Notes: a model not told the origin generated them from the sequence alone. A DNA stretch of 35,348 nucleotides from a virus (IMGVR_UViG_3300032333_000173:1-35348), one strand, 5' to 3'. Counted from the first letter of the stretch, positions 1,441 to 26,377 are shown. Numbers and translations: made by a program.

Positions 1441-1487
1441 ATTCTATACGAATGATTCCATGGCTTAAATTTAATTAAATATTTTAA
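1441..1487 (-). promoter_or_regulatory. Late-type promoter 1
   Basis: TTAAAAT-ATTTAATTAAAT (1469-1480), 22 nt, TAGAAT (1441-1446), 6 nt, ATG. Confidence 0.7.
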
Positions 1488-1672
1488 GACACGGAATCCA
1501 TTTTATCTCTAGCTTCTTTTTTCTTGTATAAAACTTCAACCCATCCATGTTTTTTAAAGTCTGCAATTGTAGGCTTAACGCCTATTTTAAATTGAGTTAG
1601 CCATTTTAAAGTGTAGTAAATTGCTACCAGATAAATTATCAAAAAGAATAATGCTGCGAAATACATGCTCAT
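1484..1672 (-). CDS. Small membrane protein, 62 aa
   Basis: N-terminal hydrophobic helix and basic tail. ATGA overlap with the upstream gene. Confidence 0.65.
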   Translation of the reverse strand: MSMYFAALFFLIIYLVAIYYTLKWLTQFKIGVKPTIADFKKHGWVEVLYKKKEARDKMDSVS

Positions 1673-2097
1673 AACTGCCTAGTAATCCCTAATACTCCAA
1701 CGTTTTTATTCTGATCGAGAACCACTTGAACAGGGGTTGAATAAACATCCACTGGCCCAAGAACTGAATTCTGCTGCACATCTTTCCATCCCCAAACATA
1801 ATAAGTGTTTGATGTTACGCTCTGAATCGAAAAATTAAGCGAGTATCTAGATGAACCTATTTTATATTGTTTTATATAACCGTTTTTAGTATTTGCGTCA
1901 TTATCCAAAATCACAAACATGTTTACGCTCACAGAAGCGTTCGCGGTTTGATCATCCAAAGTCCCTGATAATGTAAATTTATTTGATGAAGGCACTACAG
2001 TGCCGCTTGTGGCTTGCTGGACACTCCCAGAACAGCCAATCAGACAAACGAACATTAATCCAGTCGAATAAACTAAAAATTGTTTCATGTGAAACAT
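1669..2097 (-). CDS. Lipoprotein, possibly superinfection exclusion; start revised to 2097 (or 2088)
   Basis: Signal peptide ending in lipobox LIG-C, Ser/Thr linker, beta-rich domain with YYVWGWKD. TGG-TAAAAT lies 5 nt before ATG 2097. Confidence 0.7.
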   Translation of the reverse strand: MFHMKQFLVYSTGLMFVCLIGCSGSVQQATSGTVVPSSNKFTLSGTLDDQTANASVSVNMFVILDNDANTKNGYIKQYKIGSSRYSLNFSIQSVTSNTYYVWGWKDVQQNSVLGPVDVYSTPVQVVLDQNKNVGVLGITRQL

Positions 2098-2165
2098 ATT
2101 TAATTTTACCATATTTATACTCTCTATTCTCCCTTGATTTCGGCTCAAGGGTAAGCCGTTGAATC

Positions 2166-2519: not shown

Positions 2520-2598
2520 TTCATCGCTCTCTTTCTGATTTTTAAGAGTTTTCTCTCTGTTCATGAATTAATCATAGCATATATTCGAATATTGTCAA
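2520..2598 (-). promoter_or_regulatory. Early promoter-leader cassette, copy 1
   Basis: TTGACA (2593-2598), 16 nt, TATGAT (2571-2576). Leader hairpin AGAG-AGAAAA-CTCT (2545-2558), then TAAAAATCAGAAAGAG. Confidence 0.85.
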
Positions 2599-2630
2599 CA
2601 ATGTAAAAAATAATGTATCGATTGATTCTG

Positions 2631-2807
2631 TTAGAATCTTGGCCCGCCAGGTGCATATTCATGCGGTATAGACGGCCTAGATAGCTCGTATTTCATTACA
2701 AAGACCACCTCAAGCATCATAAAACACAGCATGATTGAAAGCCCTGTCAAAATGACCATCATGTATAAAATTATTGTTTTCAGCTGCTCTCTATTTGGTA
2801 ACTTCAT
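2631..2807 (-). CDS. Small single-TM protein, 58 aa (MKLPNREQLKTIILYMMVIL...; not in ORF track)
   Basis: GGGGAG SD, ATG 2807, TAA 2631-2633, one long hydrophobic stretch. Confidence 0.6.
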   Translation of the reverse strand: MKLPNREQLKTIILYMMVILTGLSIMLCFMMLEVVFVMKYELSRPSIPHEYAPGGPRF

Positions 2808-3096
2808 TTACTCCCCCATTTGTTCCCCCATTTACTCCCCCAATGGCATTTAACGCCTCTTGCTCCGTGCATCCTGATACGGCCATATAACACAAGACTT
2901 TGATCTTAACGTTTCCCGATCTTAATAATTTCTGAAAAGCTATGTATTCGCCTAACGTCAGATCATTATTCTTCCGAGTCATCAAATATCCTTCAATGCA
3001 GCAAGATAAAAGTGGAATCAACGAATCGCCTTTGATGCTGTTTTGCTCAGAAAGCCAAACAATTGTTTCTAAATAGTGAACAGATTTTTTATTCAT
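2791..3096 (-). CDS. Hypothetical protein; start revised to MNKKSVH
   Basis: AGGTGG SD before ATG 3096, which overlaps the end of the upstream small ORF. Confidence 0.55.
   Translation of the reverse strand: MNKKSVHYLETIVWLSEQNSIKGDSLIPLLSCCIEGYLMTRKNNDLTLGEYIAFQKLLRSGNVKIKVLCYMAVSGCTEQEALNAIGGVNGGTNGGVNEVTK
2805..2842 (-). repeat. 12-bp tandem repeat x3 (GGGGAGTAAATG / GGGGAACAAATG)
   Basis: Read directly. Each unit is an SD plus ATG. Confidence 0.8.
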
Positions 3097-3223
3097 ACAT
3101 AACCACCTGAAAAGCTCTAGCTGGATGAAATTGTTGAAGCGCATACAGATTTAGATCGACCATCTCAGCTGCTTGAAATGTTATCCATTCCTGGCCTAGA
3201 TCATCTATTATTTTGTATTTCAT
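3089..3223 (-). CDS. Hypothetical protein, 44 aa (MKYKIIDDLGQEW...)
   Basis: ATGA coupling to 3220..3459; fills the gap. Confidence 0.55.
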   Translation of the reverse strand: MKYKIIDDLGQEWITFQAAEMVDLNLYALQQFHPARAFQVVMYE

Positions 3224-3459
3224 GCTGCCACATCCTTAATCTTAATGCCATTTTTATCGCACAAATACCAGTCTGCATTCATTGAGAAGACAGTAAAAGG
3301 TATAAGCGATTTGTAGTTTCTCTGTCTGCCCATAAACGAATCGGAAGTCTTTGGAATGTGTTCAATCTCTACATGCGCCTTAAAGCTTATAAAATCCATG
3401 TTTTTAGTTTTTATCATGTCTCCCACTTTAAATGCCGAACGAAATTCTTGAGCGTTCAT
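3220..3459 (-). CDS. Hypothetical protein, 79 aa
   Basis: ATGA coupling. FKVGD motif of small SH3/KOW-like phage proteins. Confidence 0.7.
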   Translation of the reverse strand: MNAQEFRSAFKVGDMIKTKNMDFISFKAHVEIEHIPKTSDSFMGRQRNYKSLIPFTVFSMNADWYLCDKNGIKIKDVAA

Positions 3460-3674
3460 TCATAAAACCCCGTCTTTCTTCTTAACATATTTAGAATATT
3501 TTCGATTGATTCTCTTTGTTTTGGCGTTAATGGAATATATTCATCCGATGCAAAGTTATTTTTTTCGTAAATTTCCATTAAAAACGAATCATCGAACCAA
3601 TCAACTACGTCCTCATGGCCAGCCAATTCAATGCATTCATCAATCATAATCTTGTCGTGATTCACACTACTCAC
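3456..3674 (-). CDS. Hypothetical protein, 72 aa
   Basis: Coupled ORF, acidic, LTPKQ motif. Confidence 0.7.
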   Translation of the reverse strand: MSSVNHDKIMIDECIELAGHEDVVDWFDDSFLMEIYEKNNFASDEYIPLTPKQRESIENILNMLRRKTGFYE

Positions 3675-3837
3675 CCGCCTCTATATATTTTGAAACAATA
3701 GTTACAATATCTGTTCTGGCTCTCCCATAATCAGCTAGCTTTCTAGGCATTATGCGTTCATATTCACTAAAAACAAGATGCCTCAACTCATTAACCATTT
3801 CACGGTATAAATGCTCCTTAAGTTTTGGCTTGCCCAT
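3667..3837 (-). CDS. Hypothetical protein, 56 aa; start revised to MGKPKLKEH
   Basis: GGAGGTG SD before ATG 3837. KEHLYREMVNELR pattern. Confidence 0.6.
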   Translation of the reverse strand: MGKPKLKEHLYREMVNELRHLVFSEYERIMPRKLADYGRARTDIVTIVSKYIEAGE

Positions 3838-3973
3838 TCCGCACCTCCCAATTAGTTCCGCTGCATTCTTTGCAAACTTGAAAACCATAACATGCAGCAT
3901 CACTTTCTGATATTGTTAGCAGCCCAACATCAACAGCCTTACAACATGAATTACACCAATAAAAACTACTCAT
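3818..3973 (-). CDS. Small zinc-finger protein, 51 aa (not in ORF track)
   Basis: MSSFYWCNSC...VCKECSG has two CxxC pairs. GAGGTG SD. Confidence 0.6.
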   Translation of the reverse strand: MSSFYWCNSCCKAVDVGLLTISESDAACYGFQVCKECSGTNWEVRNGQAKT

Positions 3974-4235
3974 TGATCACCTCAACAAAATGAGAATCGA
4001 TCCATGCTTGGCGGCCAGGCTCACCAGTTGCTTGAAAATTAATGGAGTTATATTCAAGAGCGACGCAAGGAATTGATATCGAGTTATCTACGAATCCTGA
4101 ATATAGCTCTACCTCCACTGGCTTCTTTGTTATCTGTGGGAATGCCCGGACAATACAATGGGCAATTTCAGGTATTGTGGCAATTTCCTTGCTTTTTGTA
4201 ATTATTTCGCAAATTATTCGCTCTTGTTCAGTCAT
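3966..4235 (-). CDS. Hypothetical protein, 89 aa (AFPQI paralogue)
   Basis: GAGG SD and ATGA coupling. Shares an N-terminal module with 4232..4486. Confidence 0.7.
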   Translation of the reverse strand: MTEQERIICEIITKSKEIATIPEIAHCIVRAFPQITKKPVEVELYSGFVDNSISIPCVALEYNSINFQATGEPGRQAWIDSHFVEVINE

Positions 4236-4486
4236 GACTTTACCTCTCGAATGAATACCTGAATATGCTTCTTTTGCTCGCTCATTGAGTATAGATGTCC
4301 CCCAAAGTCATTTAATGTTTCTGCATTTGGGATGCCATCAAAAGCATTATCCGCTAGGATTTGTGGGAATGCTTTTATAATTGCATTGAACGTATCTTCT
4401 TCATCAATTTTATATCCGCCATAGCCATCTTTTATATATTGAGCGTCTTTCAAAAGATCCATAAGCTTTTTTTCTTTGTCAGTCAT
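4232..4486 (-). CDS. Hypothetical protein, 84 aa (AFPQI paralogue)
   Basis: ATG directly follows the upstream stop. IIKAFPQI. Confidence 0.7.
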   Translation of the reverse strand: MTDKEKKLMDLLKDAQYIKDGYGGYKIDEEDTFNAIIKAFPQILADNAFDGIPNAETLNDFGGHLYSMSEQKKHIQVFIREVKS

Positions 4487-4612
4487 TTAAAGCCATCCAA
4501 TCTTTTTCTTGTATCCGTTTCGCATAGAGAAAGGAAAATTTCTCCACTGGATATAGAAACCTTTGCCGAAAAATCTAATCCAAAACATATCTTTATTTAA
4601 GAAAAAATTCAT
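4487..4612 (-). CDS. Small aromatic/basic protein, 41 aa (MNFFLNKDMFWIRFFGKG...FSMRNGYKK)
   Basis: ATGA coupling, GGAG SD, and it exactly fills the gap. Confidence 0.6.
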   Translation of the reverse strand: MNFFLNKDMFWIRFFGKGFYIQWRNFPFSMRNGYKKKIGWL

Positions 4613-4824
4613 GATTTCTTCTCCAATTCTTTTATAAGCGCATCGGCAGCTATCGAACTGCTTTTAGCGCAATCCTGAATATTATTATTAAAATTTGGAT
4701 TAGAAATAATCCCCTGCATCGCCATTGCTGCGAAATATTCCCGTTTGGTTAGGCCTTCATAAGAGAATACATTTCCTATCCACTCTTCAAATATTGGATA
4801 AACAGGATCGTTTGCTATACTCAT
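4609..4824 (-). CDS. Conserved phage protein with GLTKREYFAAMAMQG motif, 71 aa
   Basis: Widespread phage motif G[LM]T.R[ED]YFAA.AMQG...ADA[LM]. AAGGTG SD. Confidence 0.85.
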   Translation of the reverse strand: MSIANDPVYPIFEEWIGNVFSYEGLTKREYFAAMAMQGIISNPNFNNNIQDCAKSSSIAADALIKELEKKS

Positions 4825-4905
4825 TTCATCACCTTCTTTTTCTTCAAATCATTCAATAGCCAATACCTGACGGGATATTTTTCAACCATCCATATAAAAA
4901 AATAT

Positions 4906-5193
4906 TTAAAATAATCTCTCATTGCCCACCACTTTCAGATTGTATTTTTTGCAGAATTCTAAAGCTTTTTCTACTGAGTCAAAACATGAAGTTCCCCTTA
5001 AAAAAACATCTACATTTTTGTGATCCCAAATATGCATCTCAACATCCAACTGCTCAGGCTCGAATTGTTTGAGTGATTCGAGAATCGCTTTTGAATAGTA
5101 TTCGTCGTCTATATCGTAATCATTTTCAAACAAAGGCTTGATTGCCTTTCTTATCGCCTCAATCTTTTGCTCTTCAATTGTTTTCATTGCCAA
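4906..5193 (-). CDS. Hypothetical protein, 95 aa
   Basis: AAGGA SD; fits the gene tiling. Confidence 0.7.
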   Translation of the reverse strand: MAMKTIEEQKIEAIRKAIKPLFENDYDIDDEYYSKAILESLKQFEPEQLDVEMHIWDHKNVDVFLRGTSCFDSVEKALEFCKKYNLKVVGNERLF

Positions 5194-5455
5194 TGATCCT
5201 TTCTGTCACGATATCAATAAATTTTTGCGTTAATTCGACATTCTCATTCCTATAAACCGGCACAATGTCAAAATAAGAATCATTTTTTGAAGAGTAAAAA
5301 GCTGAGCAATTGATAGAATGTATCGGGATTTTTAAAACCCTAACACCAAACAATTCATCTAGCTCACTGGCATTTGTAGTAAGAAAAAAAACAGGGTTAA
5401 CACCACCGCATTCTCGTAATCCTAAAGCAATCAATTCTTTTTTTAATGAGTCCAT
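5174..5455 (-). CDS. Hypothetical protein, 93 aa
   Basis: AAGGA SD; fits the gene tiling. Confidence 0.65.
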   Translation of the reverse strand: MDSLKKELIALGLRECGGVNPVFFLTTNASELDELFGVRVLKIPIHSINCSAFYSSKNDSYFDIVPVYRNENVELTQKFIDIVTERIIGNENN

Positions 5456-5460
5456 TTTAT

Positions 5461-5604
5461 TTATCCTTCCTCAAATTCCTGTTCAATATCGTCAAAGTGA
5501 GTCCGTAAAAATCTTGGCGTTCTATTATAATTTTTTAGCATATCGCTTATCTTAGCCACTAACTCATCCTCATCCATTTGCTTTTGATCCATTCCGTCGT
5601 CCAT
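5461..5604 (-). CDS. Small acidic protein, 47 aa (MDDGMDQKQMDEDEL...)
   Basis: AAAGGA SD; fills the gap. Confidence 0.55.
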   Translation of the reverse strand: MDDGMDQKQMDEDELVAKISDMLKNYNRTPRFLRTHFDDIEQEFEEG

Positions 5605-5620
5605 ATTAATTCCTTTTTAA

Positions 5621-5645
5621 ATGTGGAGCCGTTATGACTCCACAT
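5621..5645 (-). terminator. Hairpin after the Tad1-like gene (terminator or stabilising stem)
   Basis: ATGTGGAGTC-ATAAC-GGCTCCACAT with only a short T run after it. Confidence 0.55.
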
Positions 5646-5649
5646 AAAA

Positions 5650-5961
5650 TCAATTTCCTTGATGCGTGCCTTCTGTCCCTTCGGCAGTCCGACGGGATGT
5701 TCTAGCGTTCATCCAATGCAAAGCCTCTTCAAGCTTTGTAATTGCCAAAGCATTCTCTCTGCATTTGAATTTTGATGCCTGGTAGTACTCCATCCGCTTG
5801 ATTGCAGCCTGAATCAAGTCCTCAACAAACGCCCCATTGCGTTCCTTGCGTACCCCGTCAACAGCCAGCGGTCCATTCTGCCAGCTGACATCGATTCCGA
5901 TTCCTTTAACGGTTCCACCAGCTGGATTACCTGCTTCATCATTTGTATTCTCAAATTCCAT
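5650..5961 (-). CDS. tad1: Tad1-family anti-defence nucleotide sponge, 103 aa
   Basis: WQNGP...NGAFVEDLI...RMEYYQASKFKCRENALAITKLEEALHWMNARTSRR...EGT matches the Tad1 signature as I recall it (FQKG...[44 protein letters not shown]...LGT). Confidence 0.85.
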   Translation of the reverse strand: MEFENTNDEAGNPAGGTVKGIGIDVSWQNGPLAVDGVRKERNGAFVEDLIQAAIKRMEYYQASKFKCRENALAITKLEEALHWMNARTSRRTAEGTEGTHQGN

Positions 5962-6015
5962 GTTTATTCACCTCCCCTCTTTTATTTATTCGAACCCTTC
6001 CTTCATCCATTGTTT

Positions 6016-6177
6016 TTACTCCTTTATTTCCTTAAACCATTCGGGATAGTGTTTTGTTCTCAAAAATACCCAGTCATGTTGCTGATCTTCATTTATGCAA
6101 ATGCATTCGTTTTCCTCCTCAAAAACTTTTCCAGCCTTAGCCCATGGCAAATCCTTTAACAGTTTAAATTTTCTCAT
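6016..6177 (-). CDS. Small phage protein, 53 aa ([16 protein letters not shown]...PEWFKEI)
   Basis: GGAGG SD, ATGA coupling, common KLLKDLP..KAG motif. Confidence 0.65.
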
Positions 6178-6764
6178 TTCAAGCCCTCCAAATAATTTAT
6201 AAAACCGATATATTCTCTATAAAATTTACTTGCAGAGTCTGGATAAGATCCCAAAACTTTAATCTTAAACTCATTAAGAGTCCCCCTAAAGCAGCCGCAA
6301 ATAATAATATCGTCATTAAAACAATATGTAGTCATGCCTTTGCGTGAACCAACGCACGCAATTTGAATGTATCTTTTATCAGTTTTGGCATAGCTGAGAT
6401 CGGCATAGCTGAGATCGGCATAGCTGAGATCGGCATAGCTGAGATTGGCAGAGCTGAGATCGGCATAGCTGAGATCGGCAGAGCGGAGATTGGCATAGCT
6501 GAGATCGGCATAGCTGAGATCGGCATAGCTGAGATCGGCAGAGCGGAGATTGGCATAGCTGAGATTGGCAGAGCGGAGATTGGCAGAGCTGAGATCGGCA
6601 GAGCGGAGATTGGCATAGCTGAGATCGGCAGAGCGGAGATTGGCAGAGCTGAGATCGGCAGAGCTGAGATCGGCAGAGCTGAGATCGGCTTTTATGCCTA
6701 TTTCGATGTTAAATAGCCATTTTCTATGCAGCTCTAAAATTTCATTTAATTTGTCTTTTTCCAT
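6174..6764 (-). CDS. Pentapeptide-repeat protein, 196 aa
   Basis: 20 x A[DN]L[SR][SY] between the typical N-terminus ([10 protein letters not shown]) and C-terminal domain (GSR...TTY...[10 protein letters not shown]). Confidence 0.92.
6390..6689 (-). repeat. 15-bp tandem repeat x20 (GCC RAT CTC MGC TMT)
   Basis: Read directly; encodes the pentapeptide repeats. Confidence 0.95.
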
Positions 6765-7051
6765 TTCCTCAATTTCCTTTCTCCAACACCCGCATAGATC
6801 AATACTTTTCTTGATTGCCTTGATCGTTCAGCTGCAATCTTGCTAATTCGTTTCTTTCTTGCTGGCACTTGGGCAAGATCTTTAGCCATGTAGTCTTTGA
6901 TGTAAAAGATACAGGCTTGCAAACAATCGCCCTTCCTTTGAACATCTGACTCCAAAAGCTTCTCAACTAAATCGTAGAGTCGTCCCCTGACAACCTCGGC
7001 GGATGATGAATTGCTAGTCACTTTCTTGATCCTTCCGTAGCCCAGATCCAC
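6746..7051 (-). CDS. Basic hypothetical protein, 101 aa
   Basis: Fits the gene tiling. Arg/Lys-rich C-terminal half. Confidence 0.6.
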
Positions 7052-7422
7052 GCCTCTAAATCGTCTGAGCCATGCAAAATCATGTAGGCTTTCATCTGGA
7101 TGACCACCTTTGGATATCGCTTCAATGCCTCCAAAGCGTGCTTGTCCTCGTCATTCAGAGTCAAGTGATCTCTGAAATTAAAAACACTGTCCATCGTGGC
7201 ATGTAAAAGAAACTGTTTGTGTTTGGCATGTTTTAGATTTTCGTCTGCTACTAGCCATTTCATTGCTTCGAGGTATGAACGTCCCATATCATGATGAAAA
7301 TCATAAGAGAATATTTTTGTATTCACAAAATCACCCCTAACAAAAAACCTAAGATAGCTGCTAAAACTGCGATGTGTTTCATTCTGAAATCCCAACGTCT
7401 GTAAAAGTTTCTGTTTCTCCAT
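7018..7422 (-). CDS. Hypothetical protein, 134 aa
   Basis: Fits the gene tiling; no motif recognised. Confidence 0.65.
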   Translation of the reverse strand: MEKQKLLQTLGFQNETHRSFSSYLRFFVRGDFVNTKIFSYDFHHDMGRSYLEAMKWLVADENLKHAKHKQFLLHATMDSVFNFRDHLTLNDEDKHALEALKRYPKVVIQMKAYMILHGSDDLEAWIWATEGSRK

Positions 7423-7455
7423 TCAATTGATCCACAAAAAACCCCGTTTAAAATC

Positions 7456-7755
7456 TCAATTCTCATTATCAATCATCTCCTCTGCATATTTTTGTCTCAA
7501 AAATTTAGAATCTAAGATGCGCTTTTTTCCAGCGTCAGTATCTGACCATGTATCAGCCAAACTGAGTTTTTGTTCTTCTGTTAAAACATCAAACGCCTCG
7601 CCCATCGCCTCGATCTGTTTGTGGTTTGCATCGATCCAAAAATCAATCAAAAGGTCATAAGTAGAAATGAATTCGTATCGATCCACATGAGTTAACTCGT
7701 ATTCCCATGCATCTTCTAATTCTTGTAGTCTGTTTTCATACGCATCTTGCTTCAT
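7456..7755 (-). CDS. Acidic early protein, 99 aa
   Basis: First gene after early cassette 2. GAGGGTG SD. Confidence 0.75.
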   Translation of the reverse strand: MKQDAYENRLQELEDAWEYELTHVDRYEFISTYDLLIDFWIDANHKQIEAMGEAFDVLTEEQKLSLADTWSDTDAGKKRILDSKFLRQKYAEEMIDNEN

Positions 7756-7832
7756 TACACCCTCTTTTCTGATTTTTTAGACTTTTCTGTCTGCTTGTTA
7801 ATTCAGTATAGCATATATACGAATCTTGTCAA
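7756..7832 (-). promoter_or_regulatory. Early promoter-leader cassette, copy 2
   Basis: TTGACA (7827-7832), 16 nt, TATACT (7805-7810). Hairpin AGAC-AGAAAA-GTCT (7779-7792), then AAAAAATCAGAAAAGAGGGTG. Confidence 0.85.
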
Positions 7833-7835
7833 CAG

Positions 7836-8114
7836 TTATTTGTAGCGAATCTTTCTGTTCATTTCAGCGAAAAGAGCCCTATTCTCAGCAGTCCATCTTT
7901 TGGCCTGGGCTGTTCTTATGTTCTTCTTAGCCGTCTCTGAAAATTCACCGCGAAGCTTTGCGCGTCCTATCAGTTTCTTGAAAATCTGTTCAACTCTTTG
8001 ACGAGAGCATCCAAGCTCTAAAGCGATTGCTTGATATGTTTTATTTTCTTTCTCTGATTTCAGCAAAAAATCTATCATGTCAGACATTGCAATGATTTTG
8101 ATCTTAGTCATCAA
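7836..8114 (-). CDS. HTH DNA-binding protein (sigma region 4-like), 92 aa
   Basis: TYQAIALELGCSRQRVEQI, followed by a basic NUMOD3-like tail. Confidence 0.75.
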   Translation of the reverse strand: MMTKIKIIAMSDMIDFLLKSEKENKTYQAIALELGCSRQRVEQIFKKLIGRAKLRGEFSETAKKNIRTAQAKRWTAENRALFAEMNRKIRYK

Positions 8115-8353
8115 TATCCCCTTTTTTCTGTCCAGAATTTACGAGTAAGATCCTTGATTTCAAATTCCTTTTCTCGAATCGATTGCCTGGATTTACTGAT
8201 TGCCATGGATAAATCTTTTTTCTTTGCGTCCAAGTCAATCATTGACCGCTCAATCTCATGCTTTGCGTCTGCGATAACTGCGTGAGATTTCCATAAGTCA
8301 GCAAGGTCTTTCTCAGCTTGAGCTATTAGATTCTCGGTGTGTTGGAATGTCAT
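8111..8353 (-). CDS. Coiled-coil hypothetical protein, 80 aa
   Basis: TAATG coupling and heptad pattern. Confidence 0.7.
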   Translation of the reverse strand: MTFQHTENLIAQAEKDLADLWKSHAVIADAKHEIERSMIDLDAKKKDLSMAISKSRQSIREKEFEIKDLTRKFWTEKRGY

Positions 8354-8565
8354 TAGAAAGGCACTCCAGAAACGTCTTCAAAATTTCCAGCTGGCTCTTC
8401 TCTTAATTGCTTTGGCAAAATAACAAAGTCAGGCTTATTGGGCGTGTCTTTGTATTTATTTTCAAAAGCAACGAATGGGATTTTTTTACCGTCTATTTCA
8501 ATTTGACCGCTTAAAAAAGAACCCTTTGTCCCTTTTCGTTTCCAGATTCCTCCGATGTTTGCCAT
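8353..8565 (-). CDS. Small ssDNA-binding-like protein (DUF736-like), 70 aa
   Basis: IGGIWKR...FLSGQI...F.NK.K...PDF, with an acidic SSB-type tail EDVSGVPF. Confidence 0.75.
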   Translation of the reverse strand: MANIGGIWKRKGTKGSFLSGQIEIDGKKIPFVAFENKYKDTPNKPDFVILPKQLREEPAGNFEDVSGVPF

Positions 8566-8951
8566 TATTTTTCCTTCTTTCTAGTGACTTTCAAATAGGT
8601 AGCCCCTTCAACCTTTTCAATCGCTTCGCTCTTTGGAAAACATGCCATGAACTTGTCATCGTCTAAAATATAGAACTGCTTTAGACTCATGCCAGCTTGA
8701 ATAATTTCGTCCTCAGCTTTCAGATAATTTAAACGTGCCTTAGTCTGCTTAACTTTCGTAAAAATGAAGCCGTCTTTAGTAAGCGAATCAATTCCGGTTT
8801 TCCCTAACTCCAAAAGCATTTTGATCTTGAATTGTGAGTATTCATACTCAAGATCCTTTAGCTCTTTTTTCTTGGCCTCTATTTTATCCATCAAAGATCC
8901 GAACGAATCATCGCTTATTAGGTTATCAATTACTTGCTGTAATGCGTTCAT
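8565..8951 (-). CDS. Coiled-coil protein of the recombination module, 128 aa
   Basis: Coupled between the annealase-like and SSB-like genes. Confidence 0.65.
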   Translation of the reverse strand: MNALQQVIDNLISDDSFGSLMDKIEAKKKELKDLEYEYSQFKIKMLLELGKTGIDSLTKDGFIFTKVKQTKARLNYLKAEDEIIQAGMSLKQFYILDDDKFMACFPKSEAIEKVEGATYLKVTRKKEK

Positions 8952-9493
8952 TTTACACCCGCTTTCAAAGGCTTAGACAAAAGTCCATCTCGAACCTTAA
9001 TTAGATTTTGAATGAATGCCTCGTCTAGCGTGTCCGCGCCTAAAGCTATCATCAGTTTTTGTTGATCGAATTCCCTAGTCAAAAAAAGCTCATTTATCTC
9101 ATCGATTAATTCTCTTCGAGAACTCTTTGATTTTTCTTCTATTTGCTCTACCTTTTGTTCTAATCTTGTTTCTTGCCCAACTGCCTCAAAAGCCTCGTCA
9201 TAACTCGCTATGCCAGCATCTAATCCTATTCCAGCAATCCCCAATGCTCTTCCGATGGCTCTAGTTTCACATTTTTCTAGCTCAAATTCTTTTGATATGT
9301 CTTTTGAAGCATGTCCGGTAGCTACAATTTTTCCATCAATCAAAACTTTCGCGCTAGCAACTGCCTTATTTCCAAATACTTGGATATCAGTCTCAATTGA
9401 TCCGTTCTCATATTTGTCTTTGAAAAATTTCAACCGCTCAACTACTTGGACATAGTCTTTGCCCTTGAATTTCATTTTGATCATTTCGTACAT
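8948..9493 (-). CDS. Putative single-strand annealing protein (Rad52/Sak-like fold), 181 aa
   Basis: KGKDYVQVVERL...ATGHA...LEKCETRAIGRALG. Next to an SSB-like gene. Confidence 0.7.
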   Translation of the reverse strand: MYEMIKMKFKGKDYVQVVERLKFFKDKYENGSIETDIQVFGNKAVASAKVLIDGKIVATGHASKDISKEFELEKCETRAIGRALGIAGIGLDAGIASYDEAFEAVGQETRLEQKVEQIEEKSKSSRRELIDEINELFLTREFDQQKLMIALGADTLDEAFIQNLIKVRDGLLSKPLKAGVK

Positions 9494-9570
9494 ATAGCAC
9501 CCTCTTTTCTGATTTTAAAGTGTTTTCTCACTTGTTGAATTGATTATATCAAACATTCGAACTTTTGCAA
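9494..9570 (-). promoter_or_regulatory. Early promoter-leader cassette, copy 3
   Basis: TTGCAA (9565-9570), 16 nt, TATAAT (9543-9548). Hairpin AAGTG-AGAAAA-CACTT (9518-9533), then TAAAATCAGAAAAGAGGGTG. Confidence 0.85.
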
Positions 9571-10567: not shown

Positions 10568-10603
10568 AAAAGAAAAACCCCAACTGTTCGAGGCAATTGG
10601 GGC
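10568..10603 (-). terminator. Rho-independent terminator
   Basis: 10-bp stem, 7-nt loop, TTTTCTTTT tail. Confidence 0.85.
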
Positions 10604-10641
10604 TAATTTAGATTAAATTAATACCGCTACCTCGAATAGCT
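10568..10641 (-). ncRNA. Three-hairpin RNA or attenuator with complementary loops
   Basis: GCTA-TTCGAGG-TAGC, then TAATTTA-ATC-TAAATTA, then GCCCCAATTG-CCTCGAA-CAGTTGGGGT plus T tract. A possible promoter TTTACT-17-TTTAAT lies just upstream. Confidence 0.6.
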
Positions 10642-12230: not shown

Positions 12231-12461
12231 TCAAAAATATAAATCGTCAAGCTCTCGCCTCGTTCTTGTCCCTATCTCACGGCTTCGAATCACTTTGTTT
12301 TTCTTCGCTATTGCGTCCTGTTTTTTAGCCGAACGCAGGTATTTCCCGAGTTGTCCTTTCAACGCCACAAGCATTTTAGAACGCCCAGGAAGCTCTATAT
12401 CGGCTATTTCGTCCAGTATTTTCTTGATGTCTAGAATTAAATAATATGACTGTTGATTCAT
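12231..12461 (-). CDS. Basic hypothetical protein, 76 aa
   Basis: GAGGGTG SD; Arg-rich C-terminus. Confidence 0.65.
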   Translation of the reverse strand: MNQQSYYLILDIKKILDEIADIELPGRSKMLVALKGQLGKYLRSAKKQDAIAKKNKVIRSREIGTRTRRELDDLYF

Positions 12462-13019: not shown

Positions 13020-13352
13020 TTATTCTTTCCGATGCCATTCGCTCATGAGAAGTGAAACGATAACATGGTAAACGTGAGGAAGTTGTGATTCTGAGTCTAA
13101 TAGTTCTGTGTTTGATTTTAATATATGCCTTAGAGCTGCCTTCTTAAATCGTTCTGTACCATCCGGCAAAGACTTCCAGTTATCACGGCTATAAATATGC
13201 TGCCCGTATTCAAATACTCGACAGATATTTTCCATCATTTCAAACTCAAGAAAACTCAAATCAATCTTATCATTATCGTGCTTAACCCCTACAAACCCAT
13301 TTATTTTCTGGGCCAACTGATCATCCGAGAATGAACCTTCCGCGTGAATCAT
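13020..13352 (-). CDS. dATP/dGTP diphosphohydrolase-domain protein (DUF5664); start revised to MIHAEG
   Basis: GVKHDNDK..., VFEYG..IY.RDNWK, AALRH, DSESQLPHV.H. ATGA coupling at 13349-13352. Confidence 0.85.
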   Translation of the reverse strand: MIHAEGSFSDDQLAQKINGFVGVKHDNDKIDLSFLEFEMMENICRVFEYGQHIYSRDNWKSLPDGTERFKKAALRHILKSNTELLDSESQLPHVYHVIVSLLMSEWHRKE

Positions 13353-13732
13353 TGACCGAACCCCCACAATGTAAATCCTGAAATAAAGTCTAAAACACTA
13401 ACGGCAATCAATGAACCACCGGCCAGCGGAAACCCTCCTACAGCGTATGCCGTAACGCCAAGCGTAAAGAACCCAAGTTCCCTAGCGTCCCAAAAGCCTA
13501 TTCTGTCTCGTTTATTTTGAATTGATTGATTGATTTGCTTTTGAAGTTCTAGGTTTCTTTGATCGCACTTCATCGCTAACGATTTTAACTCCCTCTCCCT
13601 GTTCGTCCACGTCTCCGTATTTGAGCTGTAGATAAGAGTATTCGATGTCGTTTTTTGCGTCGGAGAGCTTTCGGTCGAAAAACCTACCGAGCAAAACATA
13701 AAAAATATCAGAGATAATTTTAATAAATTCAT
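13349..13732 (-). CDS. Spanin-like lysis protein, 127 aa
   Basis: Signal/TM segment ending in Cys, then coiled coil, then C-terminal hydrophobic segment. Follows the holin with ATGA coupling. Confidence 0.55.
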   Translation of the reverse strand: MNLLKLSLIFFMFCSVGFSTESSPTQKTTSNTLIYSSNTETWTNRERELKSLAMKCDQRNLELQKQINQSIQNKRDRIGFWDARELGFFTLGVTAYAVGGFPLAGGSLIAVSVLDFISGFTLWGFGQ

Positions 13733-22712: not shown

Positions 22713-22758
22713 ATTCTAATTCCTATTCTTGGAACTTAAATTTAATTTAATATTTTAA
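22713..22758 (-). promoter_or_regulatory. Late-type promoter 2
   Basis: TTAAAAT-ATTAAATTAAAT (22740-22751), 21 nt, TAGAAT (22713-22718). Confidence 0.7.
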
Positions 22759-22783
22759 GAGGGGGGAGTTTTTAGCTCCCCCC
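22757..22783 (-). terminator. Terminator after the capsid operon
   Basis: GGGGGGAG-CTAAAAA-CTCCCCCC-TCTT. Confidence 0.75.
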
Positions 22784-25512: not shown

Positions 25513-25623
25513 TTATTTTTTATTTTCTTTGGTTTCGATCTTATTCATAACCATGGCGATATTTCGTAAATCAGAATTCGAAAAATGTCTTTCGCCGAAT
25601 TTTTCTGGGTGTTCAAATCCCAT
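25513..25623 (-). CDS. Small hypothetical protein, 36 aa (MGFEHPEKFGERHF...)
   Basis: GGGAGG SD; fills the gap. Confidence 0.45.
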   Translation of the reverse strand: MGFEHPEKFGERHFSNSDLRNIAMVMNKIETKENKK

Positions 25624-25887: not shown

Positions 25888-25934
25888 ATTTTATGGACTT
25901 GTTATGAGTAGTGGAATTTAATTAAATATTTTAA
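25888..25934 (-). promoter_or_regulatory. Late-type promoter 3 (scaffold-capsid operon)
   Basis: TTAAAAT-ATTTAATTAAAT (25916-25927), 22 nt, TAAAAT (25888-25893). Confidence 0.72.
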
Positions 25935-26377
25935 ACTGACTTTTTAGGCCTGCCCTTTTTCTTGGGCTTTTCTTGTAATTGCTCAACTAGAACTTCCTCC
26001 TGGACTTCAGGCAATTCTTTGGCATCCAGTTTTATTTCTGACGGATGAACCTCTTCAAGAATAACTTCAGGGGGTTTAATTGGCTTGGGGCCGCTAATTA
26101 AATGGGCAATAAACTCTTTATTTGGAGCATACGGAACAGAAGGGACTTCTGAAACCTCGAAAGCCTCAATTTTTCTTTCTTCTCCTGTCAATTTCTGCAA
26201 TAAAATATCCATAGAATACTCAGTCAAAAATAGGTGCACACCGTCTATTGTTACCCGGTAGTAATTATCGGCCATTGTATCTAGCCTTACACCACAAGAT
26301 TTCGGGAAACACCCTGTAATCTCGAATAGATCAGCTGTCGCCTTTTGAATAAATTTTTCACCTGTTTGGAATTTCAT
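25931..26377 (-). CDS. Hypothetical protein with KKKGRPKK tail, 148 aa
   Basis: AAGGAG SD; AT-hook-like C-terminus. Confidence 0.7.
   Translation of the reverse strand: MKFQTGEKFIQKATADLFEITGCFPKSCGVRLDTMADNYYRVTIDGVHLFLTEYSMDILLQKLTGEERKIEAFEVSEVPSVPYAPNKEFIAHLISGPKPIKPPEVILEEVHPSEIKLDAKELPEVQEEVLVEQLQEKPKKKGRPKKSV

What the first reader, a model, noticed from the sequence alone, without database searches (positions are those of the whole stretch)
2520..9570. Three early leaders share a covarying AGAAAA-loop hairpin plus a fixed box: candidate new nut-like RNA element
Seen: each of the three strong promoters is followed by a hairpin with an invariant loop and a stem changed by compensatory substitutions. 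These are AGAG-AGAAAA-CTCT (2545-2558), AGAC-AGAAAA-GTCT (7779-7792) and AGTG-AGAAAA-CACT (9519-9532). In all three, exactly 5 nt then separate the 4-bp stem from ATCAGAAA(A)GAG, which runs into the SD. Known: lambda boxB is a short stem with a GAAAA-type loop, bound by an Arg-rich N protein next to boxA. Inference: a protein-binding RNA signal for antitermination or translational control of the three early operons. Arg-rich candidates are 6746..7051, 12231..12461 and the tail of 7836..8114. I do not recognise the family.
Basis: partly seen in the sequence, partly recalled or inferred. Interest (0 to 1): 0.85.

Follow-up and report, generated by a model that had tools for sequence, protein, structure and literature searches.

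The report
Shared hairpin in phage early leaders
An uncultured phage places the same small predicted RNA hairpin between each of its three best consensus promoters and the next ribosome-binding site, and a near-identical copy sits in an otherwise unrelated phage; it likely is a protein-binding site that tunes translation of early genes, but no partner or effect has been shown.

Summary
Each of the genome's three best sigma70-type promoters is followed by a 4-bp hairpin with an AGAAAA loop, 5 nt, ATCAGAAA and the SD. Two inner pairs change on both sides (p about 7e-4 under a simple null). A 26/27-nt copy sits in the same position in an unrelated 127-kb phage that shares no detectable protein with the window; a looser version occurs twice in a 180-kb phage. 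No Rfam match. The nut reading is poorly supported: the box follows the hairpin, does not resemble boxA, and its AGAAA is likely just the 5' extension of the SD; no N-like protein and no strong terminator was found. The layout instead matches Aca1/Aca2 control regions: a conserved word in the promoter spacer, a hairpin right after the predicted start site ending 23-25 nt before the start codon, an HTH gene closing one of three neighbouring operons, and a Tad1-like anti-defence gene. Best reading: a translational control site (about 0.4), reader unproven (phage HTH or host factor). Evidence is thin: six copies, three lineages, a weak stem, no RNA data.

The parts
2571..2598 (-). P1 predicted promoter: TTGACA, 16 nt, TG-extended TATGAT
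   Evidence: 11/12 consensus; no transcript data
2584..2589 (-). Conserved spacer word TTCGAA, centre of a 12-bp palindrome (2581-2592); candidate operator core
   Evidence: in a relative's contig 7 of 16 spacer positions differ but the word changes only at the W position
2545..2558 (-). Hairpin 1: AGAG-AGAAAA-CTCT
2527..2539 (-). Box ATCAGAAA plus SD GAGAG; in-frame start codon at 2519 (gene 2166-2519)
   Evidence: the ATG at 2524 is out of frame
7805..7832 (-). P2 predicted promoter: TTGACA, 16 nt (TTCGTA at 7818-7823), TG-extended TATACT
   Evidence: 11/12 consensus
7779..7792 (-). Hairpin 2: AGAC-AGAAAA-GTCT
7760..7773 (-). Box ATCAGAAA plus SD AGAGGG; start codon 7755 (gene 7456-7755)
9543..9570 (-). 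P3 predicted promoter: TTGCAA, 16 nt (TTCGAA at 9556-9561), TG-extended TATAAT
   Evidence: 10/12 consensus
9518..9533 (-). Hairpin 3: (A)AGTG-AGAAAA-CACT(T)
9500..9513 (-). Box ATCAGAAA plus SD AGAGGG; start codon 9493 (gene 8948-9493)
7836..8111 (-). 91-aa HTH-like protein, last gene behind P3, ending 3 nt before the P2 -35; candidate reader of the spacer word and possibly the hairpin
   Evidence: weak sigma70-r4/HTH hits below cut-off, HTH neighbours in the Atlas at 0.75-0.78, low-confidence model with a helix-turn-helix; no close homologue
5650..5961 (-). Tad1-like anti-defence gene in the region behind P2
   Evidence: PF24729 31.2 bits, cut-off 27; Tad1 structure 8kbb E 1.5e-14

Best explanation
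The hairpin and the A-rich stretch after it likely form a sequence-specific binding site on the 5' end of the three predicted early mRNAs, and a protein bound there would block or tune ribosome loading on the extended SD that starts 8 nt further on. Shown: the repeat, its position between promoter and SD, the compensated stem, the constant loop and spacing, and a second lineage with the same core. Inferred: that the promoters fire where predicted, that the stem folds in vivo, and that a protein binds. It would work like the Aca1/Aca2 leaders: strong host-polymerase promoters give an immediate burst of anti-defence and recombination proteins, and a feedback regulator then turns the three units down. 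The best phage candidate is the HTH protein 7836-8111, which may also bind the TTCGWA word between -35 and -10; because the unrelated phage G001 has the RNA core but neither that protein nor that word, a host RNA-binding protein is nearly as likely a reader.
For: Compensated stem with all six variable core columns confined to inner pairs and spacer. Loop, AAA and ATC unchanged across three copies while 6 of 16 promoter-spacer columns vary (p about 0.004 at that rate). In a relative's contig 8 substitutions fall in the 28-nt P1 promoter and none is listed in the hairpin and box apart from a one-base loop deletion (table truncated). G001 carries the core with 1 mismatch in 27 versus P1, 13 nt after a perfect promoter and directly before the SD; expected by chance 3e-5 to 2e-3 times under a Markov model of early leaders and an assumed 6 million to 200 million candidate positions. 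G020 has two leaders with the fourth W-S combination of inner pairs, an AACAAA loop, the same 5-nt gap and ATGAGAAA (E 0.005 and 0.04 over 1.35 Mb). Stem ends 23-25 nt before the start codon, close to the Aca1 layout (hairpin directly after the start site, ending ~20 nt before the start codon; up to three neighbouring operons with only one aca gene; PMC13551039, passages and section 22). HTH gene ends the P3 unit; Tad1-like gene lies behind P2.
Against: No binding, start-site or expression data. The window and G001 share no protein (0 of 117 frames at E<=1e-3), so a common phage-encoded reader is not visible. The HTH has no relatives with which to test co-occurrence and no hit to a named Aca family; no acr gene was recognised. 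The spacer word is palindromic in only two of three copies. The loop alone is invariant with p=0.06 and is apparently one base shorter in one relative's contig. Part of the box is ordinary SD extension. Short hairpins with A-rich loops are a general feature of some phage early leaders (20 of 369 versus 4.2 in shuffles), which makes convergence easier than the Markov estimate suggests. The G020 copies were picked by a model that rewards pairing, so their support is partly circular. Aca1 itself binds its hairpin without silencing reporters (PMC13551039).
Confidence: 0.42

Rival explanations
1. No dedicated protein: the hairpin and A-rich spacer are a cis-acting ribosome-loading or 5'-end insulating device. 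The stem keeps the 5' end from pairing with the SD, the A-run and extended SD give fast initiation, and the loop repeats the AGAAA that matches the 16S tail end (possible standby site 18 nt upstream of the real one).
For: Box AGAAA pairs with a GAUCACCUCCUUUCU-type tail; the same core in a phage with no shared protein; A-rich-loop hairpins enriched in early leaders of 19 other phage records; in P1 the 3' arm pairs with the SD when the 5' arm is removed.
Against: An insulator would not need a fixed loop, fixed outer pairs and a fixed 5-nt gap; the arm-SD pairing is seen in P1 only, not P2, P3 or G001; the host and its 16S tail are unknown; about 5-6 unpaired 5' bases and a weak stem make a poor stabiliser (own knowledge).
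Confidence: 0.25
2. The unit is simply a duplicated promoter-to-SD cassette (PeSL-like) that drives gene shuffling by recombination; the hairpin hitchhikes and has no reader.
For: The whole 69-nt unit is repeated. A 5420-nt contig of a relative holds the P2 cassette twice with 182 nt between, and 348 other bases right behind the box, the pattern described for PeSLs (PMC2839356 abstract and section 14; PMC4122927 parts 1-2).
Against: Hitchhiking does not explain compensated changes or a 26/27 core in G001 next to an unrelated spacer. PeSL stems are described as terminators, mostly within or upstream of the promoter; this one is weak, transcribed and has no U-tract. Shuffling is compatible with the best explanation and probably also happens.
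Confidence: 0.13
3. A nut-like antitermination signal: an arginine-rich phage protein binds the GAAAA-containing loop and, with host Nus factors on the box, lets polymerase read through terminators.
For: Promoter-proximal position in every early unit; loop contains GAAAA like nutR boxB; hairpin-then-box is the order in rrn leaders (PMC2724277); the unit behind P2 is about 5 kb of small genes, where Rho termination could matter.
Against: Box unlike boxA and overlapping the SD; lambda order reversed; hexaloop on a 4-bp stem rather than a pentaloop on a 5-bp GC stem; no N-like protein; only weak terminator-like hairpins (-7.7 to -9.4 kcal/mol, inside reading frames) between 9.5 and 1.2 kb, the one clear site lying upstream of P3 at about 10577-10604.
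Confidence: 0.1
4. A Q/AlpA-like system: a protein binds the DNA word between -35 and -10 and loads on a polymerase paused in the leader; the hairpin is a pause or loading signal (analogy recalled, not from a call).
For: TTCGWA is kept at a fixed place in the spacer; the HTH protein resembles sigma70 region 4 weakly.
Against: No conserved -10-like pause hexamer after the start site in all three copies (sequence); G001 has the RNA core without the spacer word; such systems act on late or lysis promoters (own knowledge).
Confidence: 0.05
5. The A-rich stretch is the target of a late antisense hairpin RNA from 25554-25598 that shuts the early leaders off.
For: A 9-nt complement of AAATCAGAA lies at 25568-25576 on the transcribed strand, in the loop of a predicted hairpin, and is the only 9-mer complement common to all three leaders.
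Against: It lies within a probable 36-codon gene with a strong SD (25513-25623); folding is not better than shuffles (z -1.0 and +0.3); a 9-mer like this is expected about 0.3 times per strand by composition (hand estimate); G001 has two further such 9-mers, one on each strand, not inspected as RNAs.
Confidence: 0.03

Closest known systems
Aca1 / Aca2 (also Aca10, Aca12) control regions of acr-aca operons (PMC13551039; passages, section 22 and supplement search read)
   Same: DNA word over the promoter, hairpin directly after the predicted start site ending about 20-25 nt before the first start codon, a small HTH gene at the end of one of three neighbouring operons, anti-defence cargo (Tad1-like).
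   Different: No homology of the HTH to a named Aca family and no recognised acr gene; shorter 4-bp stem with a fixed purine hexaloop; a fixed single-stranded stretch that merges with the SD; the RNA core also occurs in a phage without the HTH. The paper's motif drawings are figures and could not be compared letter by letter.
Lambda nut site (boxA-spacer-boxB) and rrn antiterminator (PMC2724277, passages)
   Same: Short stem with a GAAAA-containing loop and a fixed box near early promoters.
   Different: Box sequence unrelated to boxA, order reversed relative to lambda, box overlaps the SD, no N-like protein, no clear terminators.
PeSL cassettes of T4-like phages (PMC2839356 abstract and section 14; PMC4122927 parts 1-2 of 3)
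   Same: Repeated sigma70 promoter + stem-loop + SD cassettes that mark sites of gene gain, loss and exchange.
   Different: PeSL stems act as terminators and sit mostly in or before the promoter; here the stem is weak, lies in the predicted transcript and has a conserved loop.
Phage translational operators such as T4 gp43 (hairpin upstream of the RBS) and RegA sites (PMC3014915, passages); CsrA/RsmA two-site leaders (recalled)
   Same: A small RNA feature next to the RBS as the handle for repression; two copies of one short word, one in a loop and one at the SD.
   Different: No RegA or polymerase gene recognised in the window; the repeated word is AGAAA, not GGA.

Membership tests
lambdoid nut site | boxA consensus (CGCUCUUA / UGCUCUUUA) | tested here: not met
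   Box is AUCAGAAA versus sequences in PMC2724277
lambdoid nut site | boxA upstream of the boxB hairpin | tested here: not met
   Hairpin comes first in all copies
lambdoid nut site | boxB: 5-bp GC-rich stem with GAAAA-type pentaloop | tested here: not met
   4-bp stem, AGAAAA hexaloop; nutR boxB
lambdoid nut site | N-type arginine-rich antiterminator gene | tested here: not met
   No hit in PHROGs, Pfam, NCBIfam or PDB for 7836-8111; at most 5 Arg in 15 aa in six candidates. A very divergent N could be missed.
lambdoid nut site | Processive read-through of terminators | not testable with these tools
   Only weak intrinsic candidates downstream; Rho sites cannot be seen
acr-aca (Aca1/Aca2-type) control region | Small HTH or RHH gene in the operon | tested here: inconclusive
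   7836-8111 has only below-cut-off HTH hits and a low-confidence model
acr-aca (Aca1/Aca2-type) control region | Homology to a named Aca family | tested here: not met
   No such hit in Pfam, PHROGs, NCBIfam or PDB; no close relative in 1.84 billion representatives
acr-aca (Aca1/Aca2-type) control region | acr gene in the operon | tested here: inconclusive
   None recognised; most early genes are unknown; a Tad1-like gene is present
acr-aca (Aca1/Aca2-type) control region | Inverted repeat overlapping the promoter | tested here: inconclusive
   12-bp palindrome in P1, 6-bp in P3, broken (TTCGTA) in P2 and in a relative's P1
acr-aca (Aca1/Aca2-type) control region | Covarying hairpin right after the start site, about 20 nt before the start codon | tested here: met
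   Stem begins 10-12 nt after the -10 box and ends 23-25 nt before the ATG; start site itself only predicted
acr-aca (Aca1/Aca2-type) control region | Regulator binds the DNA and RNA motifs | not testable with these tools
   Needs EMSA or reporters
PeSL cassette | Repeated sigma70 promoter + stem-loop + SD unit | tested here: met
PeSL cassette | Gene gains and exchanges at the cassette | tested here: met
   One contig of a relative (runs X1 and X2, apparently the same data) with a doubled P2 cassette and replaced sequence behind it
PeSL cassette | Stem-loop is a stable terminator | tested here: not met
   Weak stem, followed by an A-run rather than a U-run; not found by either terminator scan
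Any Rfam 15 family | Covariance-model match | tested here: not met
   No match over the leaders at E<=5 in the window or E<=10 in six loci

The most novel reading that the evidence does not exclude
A portable 27-nt early-leader element used by phages that share no proteins, read by a conserved host factor or by the ribosome itself: two AGAAA words 18 nt apart, one displayed in a hairpin loop and one forming the SD extension, give host-state-dependent control of the first phage genes. It would be a new class of phage translational signal and would point to an unrecognised host RNA-binding specificity.
Probability: 0.15. Interest if true: 0.75.

Novelty: new variant of a known kind. Interest (0 to 1): 0.45.

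Why it matters
Phages must fire anti-defence genes at once and then throttle them. The Aca work shows one way (HTH proteins that read both promoter DNA and a leader hairpin). If this motif works likewise, it extends that logic beyond anti-CRISPR loci to a Tad1-bearing phage and marks about 25 unknown early genes as anti-defence candidates. The unit is under 100 nt and cheap to test with reporters. It matters less if it is only an efficient ribosome-binding design.

Tried and rejected
Rfam: nothing over the leaders. These tools may leave out very close relatives of the window. INPHARED and PLSDB BLAST with the leaders gave only chance-level or promoter-consensus matches. Relatives by protein: capsid none, recombinase-like gene one distant record without the element, terminase relatives at 36-53% identity exist but their DNA could not be fetched. 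Link between leader hairpins and the winged-helix gene family of G001: 15/44 versus 24/325 (p 4e-6) vanished after matching leader length (15/37 versus 24/69, p 0.67); only 1 of 44 such leaders has this motif and the window lacks that family. A conserved stem/anti-SD switch: seen in P1 only. Coding explanation: the P1 leader is in frame with an ATG at 2564, but P2 and P3 have no such ATG and a relative has a one-base deletion there. Antisense partner at 25.5 kb: chance level. No RNA holder listed among public runs, which says nothing on expression. A closer look at leader haplotypes in the relatives' contigs could not be obtained. No complex prediction was run. Literature: searches for AGAAAA+hairpin loop+phage+leader (0 papers), leader hairpin/early promoters/translational repression and phage RNA motif/5-UTR/covariation found no description; the original Aca2 paper was not among the search results and is known here only through PMC13551039; motif figures in that paper and its supplement could not be seen.


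Full report
Setting. The window is a complete virus record with 123-nt terminal repeats, a tailed phage with all recognisable genes on the minus strand. It has no close relative among cultured phages (capsid no match, terminase about 25% identity). The host is unknown. The stretch from 9.5 to 1.5 kb holds about 25 small genes behind three predicted promoters.

Observation. They belong to a ~69-nt repeat that runs from the -35 box to the box. The three promoters are the only minus-strand sites with 10-11/12 consensus and a TG extension, so every top promoter has the hairpin and a model built from the copies finds no fourth in the window (next score 11 bits against 53-57). In the 27-nt core only the four inner stem positions and two gap positions vary. 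Four random stem substitutions would leave all stems paired with p=7e-4; a column-shuffle control gives 29/500. The stems are weak and the leaders do not fold better than shuffles.

A word TTCG(A/T)A sits 3 nt after each -35 box, the centre of a 12-bp palindrome in P1. The last gene behind P3 (7836-8111) is an HTH-like protein on weak but consistent evidence and has no close relatives. A Tad1-like anti-defence gene lies behind P2. The AGAAA of the box pairs with a 16S tail ending CCUCCUUUCU, which many bacteria have (PMC6288834, passages), and 13 of 65 other start positions tested in the window also have AGAAA upstream (some of those starts were rough). So the box is mostly extended SD; its specific part is AAAUC.

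Relatives. Contigs from four public runs labelled marine or seawater (two appear to be the same data) were laid on 1.5-11.5 kb. One 5420-nt contig follows the window from 7.5 to 10.6 kb, holds the P2 cassette twice with 182 nt between, and has 348 other bases right behind the box: the cassette marks gene gain and exchange, as PeSLs do (PMC2839356, PMC4122927). Another contig covers P1 with 8 substitutions in the 28-nt promoter (7 in the spacer, only one in the TTCGWA word, at W) and, among the rows shown, no substitution in hairpin or box but a one-base deletion at 2553 in the loop. The table was truncated and this is one low-depth contig.

Other phages. Five pattern scans of IMG/VR, metagenomes and GTDB with relaxed variants returned one true outside copy, in the 127-kb phage G001 (also seen as metagenome contig L010): perfect promoter, 13 nt, AGAG-AGAAAA-CTCT, 5 nt, ATCAGAAA, SD, then a 120-aa gene of a family with weak winged-helix hits. 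It differs from P1 at 1 of 27 positions; a Markov model of 629 post-promoter stretches puts the expected number of chance hits at 3e-5 to 2e-3 for an assumed number of leaders. G001 shares no protein with the window, and the leaders are the best DNA matches between the two genomes. G001 has many early promoter cassettes and only this one carries the motif; 1 of 44 leaders of that gene family has it. A covariance model over 20 phage records gave as next hits two promoter-proximal leaders in the 180-kb phage G020 with AG-TC/GA-CT stems, AACAAA loops, the 5-nt gap and ATGAGAAA (E 0.005 and 0.04 over 1.35 Mb). With them all four W-S combinations of the inner pairs are seen and 24 of 24 cells pair, but these two are near duplicates, lie about 10 nt further from the promoter, and were chosen by a model that rewards pairing. 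Across 369 leaders in 19 records, A-rich-loop hairpins are enriched (20 versus 4.2 shuffled) and the exact anatomy occurs 3 times versus 0.01, so a loose background class exists and convergence is not excluded.

Mechanism. The element ends 23-25 nt before the start codon and 8 nt before the SD extension, inside the zone where a bound protein competes with the 30S subunit (established knowledge; T4 examples in PMC3014915, passages). Constant loop, outer pairs and gap with free inner pairs are what a protein-binding hairpin looks like. The whole layout matches the Aca1/Aca2 regions described in PMC13551039: DNA motif over the promoter, hairpin directly after the start site, one HTH gene serving up to three neighbouring operons. 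I put 0.42 on a protein-read translational control site, split about 0.24 for the phage HTH and 0.18 for a host protein. A protein-free ribosome-loading or insulating role gets 0.25, hitchhiking in a shuffling cassette 0.13, nut-like antitermination 0.10, a Q/AlpA-like DNA mechanism 0.05 and an antisense partner 0.03. Against nut: wrong box, reversed order, overlap with the SD, no N-like protein, no clear terminator. The antisense idea, prompted by earlier notes of this scan, yielded only a 9-mer inside a probable short gene.

Comparison and novelty. It works like an Aca leader or a phage translational operator but is not a member of a named family: no Rfam match, no Aca homology, not a nut site, not a terminator-type PeSL. 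The paper searches made show no description of this motif; subscription journals and figures were not visible. I rate it a new variant of a known kind.

Verdict. Real and previously unlisted as far as searched, but small and thinly sampled: three related copies, one near-exact outside copy, one looser lineage, no RNA or binding data. The most surprising fact is the near-exact copy in a phage without shared proteins; if that reflects a host reader the finding would deserve about 0.75.

Noticed in passing
window 5650-5961 (-): Tad1-like anti-defence (signal-sponge) gene: Pfam Acb2/Tad1 hairpin above cut-off and E 1.5e-14 to a solved Tad1.
   Followed up: partly
window 1464-1489, 22735-22760, 25911-25936: A 26-nt AT-rich repeat with a central palindrome (ATTTAATTAAAT) in three intergenic gaps ahead of structural-type genes (D6); possible late promoter or activator site.
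   Followed up: no
window 10576-10604 (-): The clearest intrinsic terminator in the early half, about 1 kb upstream of P3; would insulate the early units from late transcription.
   Followed up: no
window 7737-7838: A relative's contig has the P2 cassette duplicated around a 182-nt insert and different sequence behind it, i.e. cassette-linked gene shuffling.
   Followed up: partly
window 25513-25623 (-): Probable 36-codon gene with a strong SD; holds a 9-nt complement of the leader box in a weak hairpin loop.
   Followed up: partly
window 6174-6764 (-): Pentapeptide-repeat protein in the early region (21 copies of a 15-nt unit).
   Followed up: no
window 1669-2148 (-): Early gene behind P1 with a lipoprotein-like N-terminus (hydrophobic stretch then Cys; read by eye) and no family hit; could be an exclusion protein.
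   Followed up: no
window 13020-13367 (-): dATP/dGTP diphosphohydrolase domain (PF18909 above cut-off), a gene type linked to modified-base phages (recalled), here without a recognised DNA polymerase.
   Followed up: no
G001 39.6-48.5 kb (L062); G020 155-180 kb and 0-1 kb (L264, L271-L273): Dense arrays of near-perfect sigma70 promoter cassettes, one per small gene; several G020 leaders carry long GC-rich structured RNAs (for example near 168467, 172966, 169239) with no Rfam check beyond two loci.
   Followed up: no
L067-L088 and records G001-G020: An unnamed ~120-aa protein family with weak winged-helix hits occurs in up to five paralogues per large phage, each behind its own promoter; several leaders share a 5' hairpin with an AAAAGAA loop.
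   Followed up: partly
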